From: Eledone cirrhosa
Taxonomy: Eukaryota
Assembly: GCA_964016885.1 (NCBI GenBank)
Contig: OZ024740.1
Coordinates: forward strand, 89,528,001-89,592,000
DNA: 64,000 nt
Direction: 5' to 3'
The notes under the pieces were generated by a model that made no database searches, had not been told where the DNA came from, and was given only the letters and a program-made list of their open reading frames with translations. Shown here piece by piece: positions 6,944 to 61,120 of the stretch. The position numbers and the translations under genes were made by a program. The stretch's first letter is position 1, and every line of letters starts with the position of its first letter.

Positions 6944-7164
6944 TTTAATCTGTTATTTTAATAAATATATATATATATATATATATATATATATATATAT
7001 ATATATATATATATATATATATATATATATATATATATATATACATAAATATTTATATATAGTGGTTAAACACTGGAAGGTAATATCCGTAGTGTTGTGG
7101 TAGAGCACTCAATCCATGGGACGAGTTAGAAAGAAGAGGTTACTCAACAGTTAGTTCAGCATAC

Positions 7165-7201
7165 CGAGAACAATTGTTTCACCTTACGGATCCTCAGCTC
7201 G
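7165..7201 (-). ncRNA. Minimal Type I HHR, canonical core
   Basis: Minus strand CGAG-CTGAGGA-T-CC gtaa GG-T-GAAA-CAATTG-TT-CTCG; palindromic stem III ACAATTGT; GUU site. Confidence 0.85.
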
Positions 7202-7310
7202 TAATGGTGAACTATCTGTTGTGTAACCACTTCTCTCTCTCTCTCTCTCTCTCTCTCTCTCTCTGTCTGTATATATATATATATATATATATATATATAT
7301 ATATATATAT

Positions 7311-9003
7311 TGTTATACTTTGGGAGGCTCATGTTGCTAATAAGAAAGACAGGCACCACATTTTTCACTTCAATTTATAAATTTAGGAATTTATAAATTT
7401 CCGGTTGGTTGGTTGGTTCCTATAACCAGATGGTTGTTTATATATTGTCAACGTTCTTTCGTCACACATTATGTGACCTCTTCAGTGACTGGGTATACTT
7501 TTCTTTGTTTTTTGTGCCTCTCCTTTGTTCTGTTCTACGCCATCTTGTTTGTGTGTGTGTGTTGTGTGCTTAGTTTGCCCATGTGTTACATCCGGGTGTC
7601 TGTGTGTGTTTATCTTTGTTTTTTATTTGTTTATTTACATGTTACTGGTTGGTTTTTTGTTCTATGTGCGTGTGTGTTTTCATTTTGTCCTTAATTGTAA
7701 GTTGTGATGTTGCTGTTCCACTCATGTTTTCTATTTAATTTTGGTTGTAATTCATTTATGTTTATTGCCTCTGTGATTTGTCTAAACATTGCGTCTTTTC
7801 TGTGTGTAGATTCTATTTTTATTTCTATGTTTTCCAATTTAGCCTTATAATCTATTTTAGCATGTTGGTAGAGTACAGATGATTATTTACTATCTTGAAG
7901 GTCTCGCCAGTGTTCATTTATCCGTTCCCCTATACTACGAGCTGTCTCACCTATGTACACTATATTTTTATCTCTACATTGTCCTTCAGTACATCTTATG
8001 CTTCATACTACATTTCTAGTTTTACAGTTAATATAGGGGCTTAATTTACAGATTATACATTTCTAATCTATACAGGGAGGTCTTTGAAAAGGGTATGTCT
8101 TGCTAATAAGTGTTTTTATGGAGGTACCTCGTCTTTCTACTATCTTAATATTGAGTTTATGCTTATCTAGGGCCATTATAAATGTGTAAGCTTATTCACC
8201 TCTGGGGGTTGTGTCGATGAACATTACACTCTGGTATTTATTGCTATCATATCATGAGTTTATTCTATTAGCCTTATTCCTAGTTCTTTCTATTCTATTC
8301 CAAAGTGTGCTACTATACAAGGGGCAGGTCCCATTTATGTCATTATTTACCATTTTTTCCCATTTGGTTCTGGCTCCTCTATACACTCTGATTTTATCTC
8401 TCTGATTGTAACCAGAGAACTGCATACGATGGATGAAGTGTCGTATGTGTCTCTCTAGTTCTTCGGGGTTGCACATGCGGGACACGTTTCTCTTCACCCG
8501 TACCAAATCCGCAATCAGTATGTTGATTTTGGTATGGTCCGAAACAGTTGAGTTTCGGTGGATCAGATATTTGGAAGTCATGGGTTTGGCATAATGGGAA
8601 TGGAGGATTTGTTTTTTGTTATTGATGGTATCTAACCAGAGCTCTGTGTCTAGTACAGGTAATCGATGGTTGGGTGTTTGCTTCGGTAGTCTATAGTAAC
8701 TCTAATACTCTGGTGGATGGAGTTAGCTATTTGGTGGATGCTTTCCATTGTGTTTTTCCCTAATTCCTGACTGTTCTCTAGTGGGGGTGTTTTAACTACG
8801 ATATTTATATCATCAACGTAGCGGGAGTATATTATCAGGGTTAAGGGGTCTTCTGATTGTTCTTTAAGTTTAAGTTTAAGTCTACTGTCCCACCATACCA
8901 TGAATAGGTTAGCTATGTCGCCTGCAATGCTAACACCGATGGCTGCTCACTCCTCTTGGGCATATGTTTTTCCATTAAATTTGAACATATGTTCCTTAAG
9001 GGT
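7311..9003 (-). mobile_element. Neptune-like PLE (family B1), inverted 5'-truncated arm
   Basis: Minus strand AAIGVSIAG, YSRYVDD, HRMQFSGY, YIGETARS; 7311-8175 is the reverse complement of about 9025-9907. Confidence 0.9.
7447..7489 (-). ncRNA. HHR of the family B1 inverted arm (cleavage triplet mutated to CGU)
   Basis: GTCA-CTGAAGA-G-GTCACA taatg TGTGAC-GAAA-GAAC-GT-TGAC. Confidence 0.75.
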
Positions 9004-9019
9004 TAATTAGCTTAAAAAT

Positions 9020-57053: not shown

Positions 57054-60000
57054 AAAATATTAAACAAATAATGAATAAACAATTCCTTATATTAAACAAA
57101 AAAAGTTCATTATTTAACGATCGTTTCTAGGATATATATGTGTTAGAGTTGGCATGCATATTCAACAGATCTATGTACAAAATTATACAAAATTATACAA
57201 ACTATCAAGATTAAATATACATACCAACACATATATACGCCGTCTTCAGAAATAATGAAATATATTTATTGATAATAACAACAATTCAAACTTTCAGGTC
57301 CGATTGGGAACAAAATTGACCAATGAAAATACAAAAGGTTTAATGCCGTTCGGTGTGTGTATATACATGTAATAACCCTTACACATATTTTACAAAAATG
57401 TATGCACAACCTGTATACTCATACAAAAAGGATGGATGCAAATACAAAATTTCAAGGTTAATGTCTCTGTAAGTTTATAATGCACAGATAAGATGCGTAT
57501 AGATACATAAATATGAAATAAGTGTATACACATATTTTCATACTAACACATATCCGTATAATCACACATACACGCGCGTATATGCATAAACATACACATA
57601 AACTACAAACATACAAACACACACACACCACCACTCACATATATATATGTGGATATAAAATCCTAAGCACATGGATATTAATTCACTCACATAAACACTG
57701 GCACACACATTTAGATAAAGATACAGAAATTAGGTGGGAGGGGGGGGCTGAGGTCAGTATTCAACGGTTTGGGCTGCCTGCTTAATATAGATGTATCTAT
57801 AAACTAAGAAAATAAAAAATAATAATAAATAATAAATAAACATTAAAAAGGAAAGAAAAGAAAAAGAAAAAAGAAAAAAGAAAAAAGAAATATATCAAGA
57901 AAATATATATATATATATATATATATATATATCCATATATATATATCTATATATACATATACATACATATAAATATACATACACATACATACACACACAC
58001 CCACACATATACATATACACATACACATATACAAACACATACATACATATACACACATCCACACTTAGAACATAACATACACACACATATATAAACATAT
58101 ACATATACACACATAGATACAAATACACACATACATATAAATACACATATATATATACATATATATATATATATATATATATATATATATATATATATAT
58201 ATATATATATATATATATATATACATACACTCATACATAGGCATATAATCACACATACTATATAGACACACATATATATACACACATACATACACATATA
58301 CCTACACTTACATACATATATACATACAGATATACACATACATACCTATATATACACACAAACACATACAGACGTATATACATACATACAGACAAATACT
58401 TACGCATCTATATATCGGTATATACATACAAACACCACTACACTCTCACACAACTCAGACATACAAAGAAAAAGGTATATACCCATACACATATACATAT
58501 ACAAATAGAGAAACATATACATATATATGTATATATATACACATATATATACATATATATATATATATATATATACATACATATACATATACACATACAC
58601 ACATACACATACAAACACATACATACATGTACGCACACATAGATATATATACACACACACATACACACATACACATGCATATATAGTCATACACACACAT
58701 ACACCTACACGAACATACACATACACATATACAAAGATATATATACACACACACACATACATACACACACACACATATATATAAAAAAAATAAAGATATA
58801 TATATATATATATATACATACATATATATATATATATATATATATATATATATATACATACATACACATACATACACACATACATAGACATATATGTACA
58901 TACATACATATACATAGATACATACACATACATACATACATATATATATACACACACATAGACATATACATACATACACACACAACATACATACACACAT
59001 ATATACTCATACATAGAATTAGATATATAAACATACATACATACGCACTTACATATACTCATATATACCAATACAAACGCATCCATATATGTGTATATAC
59101 ATAGAAACACCACTACACCCTCACCCAATTCAGATATACAAAGAAAAAGGCATATACATATACATATATACACGCATCAATAGAGATATATATACACATA
59201 TATATATATATATATACATGTGTGTACACACATACACTTATATACATATACCCACACACACATACAACCATAAATACACATACAAACACCCACATATATA
59301 AATATATACACATATATATATATATACACACACATAAAAGACAGACATGCACACATATATATTTTTTTACACATATATATACACATATATATACACACAC
59401 ACACCCTCACATATACACATACACATAAGTTATATTATAATAATAAATAATATATATATATATACACATACATATATATATATACATATATATATATACA
59501 TATATATATATATACACACACACATATATGAATATAGACATATAAACACACATAGATATATATACATACATATATACACATACATATACACACACACACA
59601 TATACACATTCACATATATATGTGTGTGCATACACACATATATATACATACACACATATACACATAAACACATATATGTGTATACATGCACACACACACA
59701 TATATCCACATAGATACGAAGATATACATATAAATAGAGAGACATACATATATATACACACACACACATATACATACATACATACACACACATATATATA
59801 TATATACATATACATACATATATATATATACACATATATATATATATACATATATATATATATACATATACACATACAGACATACACATACACATACATA
59901 TACACACATGCATATATACACACATATACACATACATACACACATATATATATATATACACACAATCATACATTCTTATTTGCATGCGCATATATGTATG

Positions 60001-60630
60001 TTTATATTCAGATATAAATACCCAAATATATATACACCTACCTACATATATATTCATACATACACGCTTACAAACACAGATGATAATAGTATGGGGGAAA
60101 GGGGGGGGGTTGGAGAAGGGGATTATAGTAAATATATGTTTCAAGAAACATAGAATATTATCTGTATCTAGATCCAATGTATGTTTATACATAGTATCAG
60201 TGTTAGGAAATACAATAAACAAGGAATAAGGTAAAATTTATGCAATTCAAAATAAATAAGTATACCATTAATTATATGTTAACTAAACTAAAGATAGTTA
60301 ACATATTGATTTCTAAGGTGTAAATTAGTTAGGTTTATAATATTTGAAGCAGAATTTTGAAGTTAAATAGTAGTAGAGTATTAATTATAGTATAACTAAA
60401 TTAAAGTTAATAACTTTATGGTATCAATATTAGGAAATGAATTTAGTAATAGGGAAAAAACAAATAAAGTATTACATCGGTAGTAGAATATAAAATATAG
60501 GTTAATTAAATTAAAAATTATATATTTATTTCTATAGTATATGTTAATTAGGTATATAATAAATAAAACAGATATTGTATTTTATCAATCGCAGAATATA
60601 ATTATATGCAAATAGAAATCAAAATTAATA
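57053..60630 (-). mobile_element. Probable PLE 3'UTR (family E) swollen by TA/CA microsatellite
   Basis: 57053-57230 is inverted at 60806-60987; about 57395-59460 is inverted at about 62245-64000; degenerate HHR-like motif at 57111-57173. Confidence 0.55.
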
Positions 60631-60679
60631 CATATATATATACATATACATACATATATATATATACACATATATATAT

Positions 60680-60805
60680 GATCCTTCAGGTTGAAGTGTG
60701 GTCTTTTCAATGCCAAAGGTTCAGTTTTATCTTCAATGTTTAGTTTTTTTACTATGTTGTGTGTTTTGTTGTTGATGTTGGTGAGTGACGCATTATTAGA
60801 TTTTT
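60680..60805 (-). mobile_element. Small PLE pre-RT coding fragment
   Basis: Minus-strand translation NINNKTHNIVKKLNIEDKTEPLALKRPHFNLKDH parallels family C NINNSACDIVKKLCIDDRTQP...FNLKDHK. Confidence 0.7.
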
Positions 60806-61120
60806 TATGTGTTGTTATGTATATTTAATCTTGATAGTTTGTATAATTTTGTATAATTTTGTACATAGATCTGTTGAATATGCATGCCAACTCTAACACA
60901 TATATATCCTAGAAACGATCGTTAAATAATGAACTTTTTTTGTTTAATATAAGGAATTGTTTATTCATTATTTGTTTAATATTTTATCTTGACTCTGTAT
61001 ACTGTTTATCTTTCACCGAAAGTGATTTTTCATTACATTTCTTCTTTCCATGATATCCGGAATACATTGAGTTCTTCATACGGATTGGACACTACCGTAA
61101 ACTCTTGGTAGATTTATCTA

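What the first reader, a model, noticed from the sequence alone, without database searches (positions are those of the whole stretch)
7061..61120. Six independent head-to-head PLE fold-backs with hammerhead or tail ends running into microsatellites
Seen: inverted pairs at 7138-7228 (arms about 30 bp), 7311-9907 (about 870 bp), 19966-20265 (149 bp), 44252-44396 (about 70 bp), 50762-56570 (about 2.9 kb) and 57053-60987 (about 180 bp). They come from unrelated families. The truncated 5' ends face inward, and the HHR-bearing 3' ends face outward, mostly terminating in (TA)n. Established: PLEs often carry inverted 5'-truncated copies and HHRs in pseudo-LTRs, and some PLE clades favour microsatellites. 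Inference: self-complementary (TA)n may allow both strands to be nicked and to prime reverse transcription, or nascent cDNA may snap back. Either route would make palindrome formation a routine integration outcome, and the products would be long dsRNA substrates for A-to-I editing or small RNAs if transcribed.
Basis: partly seen in the sequence, partly recalled or inferred. Interest (0 to 1): 0.75.

Follow-up and report, generated by a model that had tools for sequence, protein, structure and literature searches.

The report
Penelope elements prime both DNA strands
All six mirror-image repeats are real insertions of Penelope-like jumping genes, a layout already described, and because one arm almost always carries a short tail and the other does not, each insertion is likely built from two DNA copies started on the two cut strands rather than from one copy folding back.

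Summary
All six head-to-head pairs are real. They are ends of Penelope-like elements (PLEs) from six families with 1,980-25,213 exact motif matches each; four are Hydra-type. Five pairs are larger than reported. Among neighbouring copies within 6 kb, 100 are head-to-head, 10 tail-to-tail and 14 tandem; a LINE and a SINE give 1 inverted pair of 14. Raw reads of other samples show such junctions for one family. The layout (inverted 5'-truncated copy, one-sided tail, (TA)n target) is published. The quantitative rule was not found in my paper searches: 116 of 119 pairs join one tailed arm to one tail-less arm. In 25 pairs each arm holds sequence the other lacks (tail-less arm at least 50 nt longer), and four arms are tail only. 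This argues against snap-back and the published self-priming idea, and for two cDNAs primed on opposite nicked strands from two start sites, likely of one RNA (confidence 0.68). (TA)n is the families' target; that it causes the palindromes is not shown. Editing and small RNAs are untested. The scan reached this reading before on other DNA of this genome.

The parts
7062..7201 (-). #1 (family F1, Hydra-type) tailed arm: HHR (core CTGAGGA at 7191-7197) plus 67-nt tail ending in the (TA)n at 6961-7061
7204..7233 (+). #1 tail-less short arm ending in (TC)n(TA)n, joined to the long arm through a CCAT overlap
7309..9003 (-). #2 (family F2) tail-less long arm: RT-thumb and GIY-YIG remains, 3' UTR, minimal HHR at 7457-7485, ends in (TA)n 7270-7310
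9001..9967 (+). #2 right arm: pLTR with HHR at 9718-9746 plus 60-nt tail
9968..12100 (+). Read-through of the #2 right arm into the 5' ORF region of the next unit (decayed, then interrupted)
19904..20114 (-). #3 (family F3, Neptune-like parent) tailed arm, 64-nt tail, ends in (TA)n 19880-19904
20113..20263 (+). #3 tail-less arm with degenerate HHR, ends in (TA)n 20262-20318; both arms share an allele seen in 1 of 100 listed copies
44173..44321 (-). #4 (family F4, Hydra-type) tailed arm, 80-nt tail; 5' end lies in the loop of HHR stem II
44321..44395 (+). #4 tail-less arm, ends in (TA)n 44394-44423; centre is an A14/T9 run
50762..53779 (-). #5 (family F5, Hydra clade) tail-less arm with RT and GIY-YIG remains, long 3' UTR and degenerate HHR
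53724..56645 (+). #5 tailed arm (76-78-nt tail at about 56570-56645), ends in (TA)n 56647-57054
57052..60808 (-). #6 (family F6, Hydra clade) tail-less long arm: low-complexity 3' UTR, internal deletion, ORF fragment at 60674-60808
60808..61121 (+). #6 tailed short arm (135-nt tail), ends in (TA)n from 61122

Best explanation
The six pairs are insertions of endonuclease-bearing Penelope-like elements in (TA)n, each likely made by two-ended target-primed reverse transcription rather than by one copy folding back. Inferred steps: the element's protein, likely a dimer, nicks both strands of the (TA)n tract. One nick primes at the distal start site of the RNA (giving the tailed arm) and the other at the proximal site 60-135 nt upstream (giving the tail-less arm). 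Both cDNAs run toward the RNA 5' end, often to a fixed stop that is likely the transcription start. Their 3' ends are then joined through microhomology or short fillers and each is completed on the other. Shown: two fixed 3' ends per family, their near-obligate pairing, arms with mutually exclusive sequence, matching subfamily alleles in the two arms, fixed 5' hot spots, head-to-head bias. Inferred: the dimer, use of one RNA molecule, the order of events, and what the hot spot is. The palindromes are likely neutral by-products.
For: 116 of 119 pairs with both outer ends at a defined site have one tailed and one tail-less arm; free choice of site allows at most 50% (p=4e-31). The tail-less arm reaches at least 50 nt further 5' in 26 pairs (25 without window #2), the tailed arm in 13, and 77 are within 50 nt. 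Four arms consist of tail sequence only (L270, L282, L220, L196), and window #6 is of the mutually exclusive kind. Arms agree at 473 of 554 subfamily-variable site comparisons versus about 314 expected for random partners. Arm 5' ends cluster: 38/70 in F3, 54/80 in F4, 9/14 in F6. Junctions show overlap in 58, are blunt in 8 and have a gap or filler in 50 of 116. Raw reads of three other samples show strand-switch joints from the F4 hot spot to positions at or inside the tail. In vitro, an anole PLE protein cuts and extends both strands, starts at two RNA sites that bound the tail, and is predicted to be a dimer (PMC11167929, parts 1-2 of 4 read).
Against: The 77 near-symmetric pairs cannot by themselves tell two-ended priming from snap-back. 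In vitro the two strands did not differ in start site (PMC11167929), so coupling on one molecule is not shown biochemically. One RNA versus two sibling RNAs is not resolved: the own partner was the closest arm in only 33 of 101 pairs, and allele comparisons are linked and not independent. Copying the overlap twice from one RNA needs strand displacement (untested). Arm boundaries come from BLAST, which I take to be good to a few bases, and a few asymmetric cases lie in low-complexity DNA (L124, L130). Thirty of 150 rows had an end at neither site and were set aside. Samples come from the first 25-160 Mb of one contig. The cap-G signal is suggestive in F4 only.
Confidence: 0.68

Rival explanations
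1. Snap-back or self-priming: one cDNA (or an antisense RNA) folds on itself and is copied into a hairpin, and the endonuclease later resolves the hairpin with a staggered cut that leaves the tail on one arm.
For: Proposed in print for head-to-head junction palindromes (PMC3846280 passages); the tail is ascribed to EN-mediated resolution in PMC8557442 (passages). It explains shared alleles and self-complementary centres, and fits the 77 near-symmetric and 13 tailed-longer pairs.
Against: With a target-primed first strand, the second arm must be a subset of the first; 25-26 pairs and four tail-only arms break that. A stagger of fixed polarity predicts one kind of asymmetry, and both occur. Copies started at the tail-less site should give tail-less/tail-less pairs, seen in 2 of 119.
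Confidence: 0.15
2. Two-ended priming by two separate RNPs, or by a dimer holding two sibling RNAs from one active locus, with the two start sites assigned by protein geometry rather than by a shared RNA.
For: It avoids copying one RNA twice. Sibling RNAs would also match at subfamily sites. L073 joins an F3 arm to the tail of family F6, so two RNAs can meet at one site.
Against: Independent RNAs give no simple reason for 116/119 mixed ends. Several tailed arms stop inside the tail or 14-34 nt past the proximal site, as if blocked on a shared template (inference).
Confidence: 0.12
3. Post-insertion origin or artefact: independent insertions into the same TA tract, later rearrangement, or chimeric-read and assembly fold-backs.
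For: PLEs nest densely in TA tracts. The window's own junctions were not seen in reads.
Against: Head-to-head 100 versus tail-to-tail 10; LINE and SINE controls give 1 inverted of 14; arms abut with no TA in most centres; flanks outside the arms are not mirrored; arms differ by 0.4-3.8% on average and by a tail; family-level junctions recur in raw reads of three samples.
Confidence: 0.05

Closest known systems
Typical EN+ PLE insertion unit: inverted 5'-truncated copy next to the pLTR, tail on one end (PMC8557442: passages, sections 3 and 11, supplement hits; PMC3846280: abstract and passages)
   Same: Head-to-head inverted copy, one-sided tail, partial tandems, (TA)n target for several clades, HHR near the 3' end.
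   Different: Tails here are 60-135 nt rather than 30-40 nt. The passages read give no count of tail pairing or of arm asymmetry, and propose self-priming or EN resolution.
Hydra clade of C-terminal EN+ PLEs, including Hydra-1_Obim (PMC8557442 section 11 and supplement hits)
   Same: F5 and F6 parents have RWK/RWR, DKT, CxCX5C, CxxC and CxH motifs, a YRDD catalytic motif, no cysteine pair inside GIY-YIG, and insert in (TA)n. F1 and F4 have the same RT type.
   Different: Distinct families by eye, with long low-complexity 3' UTRs (units to 6.9 kb versus under 3 kb) and HHR variants with long stem II. No tree with reference proteins was built.
Poseidon PAc of Anolis in vitro (PMC11167929, parts 1-2 of 4)
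   Same: Two RT start sites bounding the tail; both strands cut and extended; AT-rich target; predicted dimer.
   Different: Different clade. The parts read do not address inverted insertions and found no strand difference in start site; the genome data here imply the two sites are used together.
Twin priming of L1 (PMC2837659: search listing and abstract start only; mechanism otherwise recalled)
   Same: Both target strands prime cDNA on the RNA and the two cDNAs are joined, giving an inversion.
   Different: In L1 the second primer anneals at variable internal sites and the arms barely overlap (recalled). Here the second site is fixed near the 3' end, so the arms overlap and form palindromes in about half of the copies.
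Non-LTR retrozymes (bioRxiv 10.64898/2026.07.22.740005, part 1 of 5)
   Same: Short, HHR-bearing, ORF-less PLE derivatives.
   Different: Retrozymes are head-to-tail tandems; #1, #3 and #4 are head-to-head stubs of families whose long copies carry an ORF.

Membership tests
EN+ Penelope-like element | PLE-type RT with C-terminal GIY-YIG in the element or its parent family | tested here: met
   ORF remains in #2, #5 and #6; parent ORFs contiguous with the same ends in L161 (F3), L163/L164 (F4), L250 (F5), L243 (F6), RT hits in L303/L304 (F1). Pfam gave only a weak GIY-YIG hit (E 0.0066) and no RT hit for the PLE frames, so the call rests on motifs and on comparison by eye with published proteins.
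EN+ Penelope-like element | pLTR / partial tandem organisation | tested here: met
   Read-through tandems for F2 (window), F5 (L259, L260) and F6 (L243); no read-through copy found for F1, F3 or F4 in the sample.
EN+ Penelope-like element | Optional tail at one end | tested here: met
   Tails of 67, 60, 64, 80, 78 and 135 nt; 116 of 119 pairs tailed on one side only.
EN+ Penelope-like element | Type I or minimal hammerhead motif in the pLTR | tested here: met
   Motif read from sequence in all six families; canonical core in F1, F2, F6 and some F5 copies, degenerate in F3 and F4 (descriptor features from PMC4209133 passages).
EN+ Penelope-like element | Ribozyme self-cleavage and retrotransposition activity | not testable with these tools
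   Needs biochemistry.
Hydra clade (F5, F6; F1 and F4 by RT type) | RWK, DKT, CxCX5C linker, no CCHH, CxxC and CxH, (TA)n target | tested here: met
   L250: RWK, DKT; L260: CxCX5C, CxxC, CxH; L245: RWR, DKT; L243: CxCX5C, CxxC, CxH; L163 (F4): CxCX5C; F1 only by tblastn to this RT type.
Hydra clade (F5, F6; F1 and F4 by RT type) | Placement in the Hydra clade on an RT tree | not tested
   Reference proteins were only read in the supplement.
Neptune clade (F3) | CX2-5CxxC linker, cysteine pair inside GIY-YIG, Neptune-type RT motif 4 | tested here: met
   L161 ORF has the linker and cysteine pair, and its motif-4 region resembles the Neptune rows of the supplement alignment by eye; no tree.
Nematis or Neptune clade (F2) | Linker Zn-finger-like motif and clade-specific RT | tested here: inconclusive
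   A cysteine pair inside GIY-YIG and a decayed linker motif are present; assignment to Nematis is recalled, not tested.
Snap-back (fold-back) product | Second arm is wholly contained in the first arm | tested here: not met
   25-26 pairs with mutually exclusive sequence and four tail-only arms; window #6 is such a case.
Non-LTR retrozyme | Head-to-tail tandem of HHR units | tested here: not met
   Within 500 bp, 64 head-to-head, 1 tail-to-tail, 3 tandem.

The most novel reading that the evidence does not exclude
Two-ended priming is the default way endonuclease-bearing PLEs integrate: a dimeric enzyme primes both target strands from two fixed sites on one RNA, and the insertion is closed by joining two first-strand cDNAs. 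One mechanism would then explain the tail, the inverted pLTR and the junction palindromes across three PLE lineages, and would seed a 3-Gb genome with thousands of long inverted repeats.
Probability: 0.45. Interest if true: 0.75.

Novelty: new member of a known kind. Interest (0 to 1): 0.5.

Why it matters
How PLEs form their tandem and inverted ends and their tail is named as an open question in PMC8557442, and the printed proposal is self-priming (PMC3846280). The 116-of-119 pairing rule and the mutually exclusive arms turn this into a direct test in an existing in vitro system (PMC11167929). If right, PLEs close an insertion differently from typical LINEs. The structures themselves are ordinary for PLEs, and no host function is shown.

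Tried and rejected
(1) That the #1 arms are an extended HHR stem I: rejected, since long copies carry other sequence upstream of the core. (2) A systematic C/T difference between F3 arms: rejected as ascertainment, since T is in 1 of 100 unbiased matches. (3) That palindromes spread as fixed master units: rejected, since centres vary by several to thousands of bases and arms match by subfamily; three F6 loci do share one centre. (4) Gene conversion as the cause of arm likeness: unlikely, with 10 private alleles shared by both arms against 115 singletons in four families. (5) An A-to-G excess between arms: none (42 versus 37); this says nothing on RNA editing. (6) Expression: no RNA holder listed. 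(7) Cap-G at the 5' hot spot: 9 of 11 non-templated bases before the F4 start are G (3 belong to the partner arm), but F3 gives 4 G, 3 A, 4 T (counted by eye); suggestive only. (8) Arms ending at the HHR cut site: a handful (L306, L168, L223), too few to test. (9) The first estimate of the paired fraction was inflated by identical short probes and was redone. (10) A DNA search with the F3 tail returned nothing, probably because common words are skipped. (11) Rfam hits were miRNA models matching hairpins and repeats below their gathering scores. (12) Reads on the #2 centre did not show that junction among the 15 joints listed (62 not shown). (13) Whether six pairs in 64 kb exceed the local expectation was not tested.
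Full report
1. Observation. Self-BLAST and reading of the window confirm all six inverted pairs. The window is G000:C1:89528001-89592000 in a 3.0-Gb genome. The repeat content suggests an octopus (inference from the likeness to Hydra-1_Obim, and from earlier scan notes). 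Arm identity is 90-100% for #2-#6. In #1 and #3-#6 one arm continues through a tail to a (TA)n tract. In #2 the right arm reads on into the next unit's ORF region. In #6 the left arm is 3.7 kb long.

2. Families. Exact motif matches in the genome: F1 6,823, F2 17,594, F3 8,628, F4 25,213, F5 1,980, F6 2,088. Long copies carry PLE RT and GIY-YIG frames. The F5 and F6 parents show the Hydra-clade motifs listed in PMC8557442 section 11, and F1 and F4 have the same RT type. F3 is Neptune-like. F2 has a linker and cysteine pair of Neptune or Nematis type (label recalled). Pfam detected almost none of this: one weak GIY-YIG hit among the PLE frames of 21 proteins scanned. HHR motifs are present in all six families but degenerate or cut in several window arms.

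3. Orientation and controls. Among the first 100 listed matches of each family (600 in all, first 25-160 Mb of contig C1), neighbours within 6 kb were head-to-head 100 times, tail-to-tail 10 and tandem 14 (p=8e-20 for head-to-head versus tail-to-tail); within 500 bp the counts were 64, 1 and 3. An (ATT)n-ending LINE from the window gave 0 inverted and 9 tandem, and a SINE 1 and 4 (Fisher p=4e-10). At least 101 of 180 sampled copies sit in a detected pair; this is a lower bound, because 3-kb loci cut long pairs and de-duplication dropped some.

4. Not an assembly artefact. Flanks outside the arms are not mirrored, and the arms differ by a tail and by 0.4-3.8% on average. In raw RAD-seq reads of three other samples of one study with the same species label, 12 of the 15 joints listed for an F4 copy are strand switches from the 5' hot spot to positions at or inside the tail. 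Several recur in all three runs (for example 62, 30 and 54 reads, each from a single start), and about 3,000 reads per run continue into (AT)n at the tail-less end. The window's own #2 junction was not among the joints shown, so the six centres remain unconfirmed in reads.

5. The rule. I mapped 249 fetched loci plus the window to real family copies. Of these, 220 were taken in listed order (including 40 further F3 sites) and 29-40 were picked because they looked like pairs or tandems, which does not select for end type. This gave 150 junction rows. Thirty had an end at neither defined site (locus edge, broken arm or chaining artefact) and one was a duplicate. Of the remaining 119, which include five window pairs, 116 have one tailed and one tail-less arm, 2 have two tail-less arms and 1 has two tailed arms, where the right arm reads on into a tandem (p=4e-31 against 50%). 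The tail is the start of the next unit in read-through copies of F2, F5 and F6, as described for PAc.

6. Snap-back or two primers. A cDNA that folds back can only copy what it already holds. The tail-less arm reaches at least 50 nt further 5' than the tailed arm in 26 pairs (25 without window #2), the reverse holds in 13, and 77 are within 50 nt (junctions printed). Four arms are tail only, with no overlap with their partner. These pairs need two RNA-templated syntheses. The arms still come from one source: they agree at 473 of 554 subfamily-variable site comparisons against about 314 expected (sites are linked), and within-pair divergence is lower than between-pair divergence in each family. 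The partner is the closest arm in only 33 of 101 pairs, because most differences are later singletons. Junctions show overlaps (58), blunt joins (8) or gaps and fillers (50); some fillers copy the tail (L007, L292, L161). Arm 5' ends pile up at one place per family: F3 38/70, F4 54/80, F6 9/14, F1 7/18, F5 6/28, F2 5/22. The hot-spot windows were drawn after seeing the data, and the search motif requires one arm to reach near them. Contig depth in an independent lay-up rises about tenfold across the F4 spot. A transcription start is the likely cause (initiator-like TCAGT in F4; cap-G suggestive only).

7. Role of (TA)n. 239 of 267 defined ends touch (TA)n against about 10% background. Unpaired copies do so nearly as often (65/79 versus 93/101, p=0.065), and (TA)n targeting is known for these clades. 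Self-complementarity may help priming at both nicks, but nothing here shows that it is needed; the same unit with a 9-bp target duplication is described in a rotifer.

8. Mechanism. Best reading (0.68): two-ended target-primed reverse transcription from two fixed RNA sites, likely by a dimer on one RNA, followed by joining of the two cDNA 3' ends. It rests on the genomic rule shown here and on in vitro properties of an anole PLE (PMC11167929, parts 1-2 of 4). Rivals: self-priming with staggered resolution (0.15), two sibling RNAs (0.12), post-insertion origin or artefact (0.05). Transcription, dsRNA, editing and small RNAs could not be tested.

9. Known and new. The layout is described in PMC8557442 (passages, sections 3 and 11, supplement searched for two terms) and PMC3846280 (abstract and passages), which propose EN resolution and self-priming. 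Three full-text searches listed no paper that applies twin priming to PLEs or counts tail pairing; the library lacks most subscription papers, and I did not read the PAc supplements, which may bear on this. Other agents of this scan reached the same reading on other DNA of this genome. My reading was recorded before the first look-up, and their notes are not independent support. Verdict: real; new members of a known kind; moderate interest, because a standing mechanistic question becomes directly testable.

Noticed in passing
window 13811-18426: Three tandem, 5'-truncated copies of a non-LTR element on the minus strand ending in (ATT)n, with a CCHC-like motif and restriction-like domain (R4/Dong-like label recalled); 4,796 motif matches; used as control.
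   Followed up: partly
window 5108-5301, 37574-37790, 42963-43157, 49907-50127: Four copies of a 190-bp SINE-like repeat, 32,594 exact motif matches; used as control.
   Followed up: partly
start sites of F1, F3, F4, F5, F6 (L304, L062, L164, L222, L249, L259, L243): The word RCTC begins 5-8 nt downstream of all seven start sites with known downstream sequence, and opens a bulged hairpin at the proximal site in F1 and F5 by folding and in F4 by eye. In F2 both sites are instead followed by TATCG.
   Followed up: partly
L073:1360-1709: Chimeric insertion: an F3 palindrome whose short arm is joined to the tail of family F6, so two families' RNAs met at one site.
   Followed up: no
window 45186-47027: 498-aa open frame of a Hydra-type RT-EN on the minus strand, 68% identical to the F4 parent in L163.
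   Followed up: partly
window 47700-50746: Near full-length decayed PLE related to F2 (68-71% DNA identity), with an HHR at 50508-50535 and the F2 tail-less end at 50746, sharing its TA tract with #5.
   Followed up: partly
window 4622-6961 and 18511-19790: Two copies of another Hydra-type PLE whose 3' UTR holds a 140-bp tandem duplication.
   Followed up: no
window 61277-64000 and L241:1-1396: A third F6 copy (tail-less) follows #6 on the plus strand and ends about 400 bp beyond the window.
   Followed up: partly
window 41106-41193: Solo, diverged F1 end on the minus strand next to (TA)n(AG)n.
   Followed up: no
window 24000-37500: Decayed LINE remains with RVT_1 and AP-endonuclease hits, in partial tandem.
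   Followed up: no
window 43575-43912 and 47052-47380; 43994-44064: An inverted pair of a second SINE-like repeat 3.1 kb apart, and two weak tRNA-like Rfam matches.
   Followed up: no
F2 5' hot spot, window 9655-9665 and L261-L290: The F2 hot spot coincides with AAGATGGCG/AAAATGGCG, which resembles a YY1 site (label recalled).
   Followed up: no
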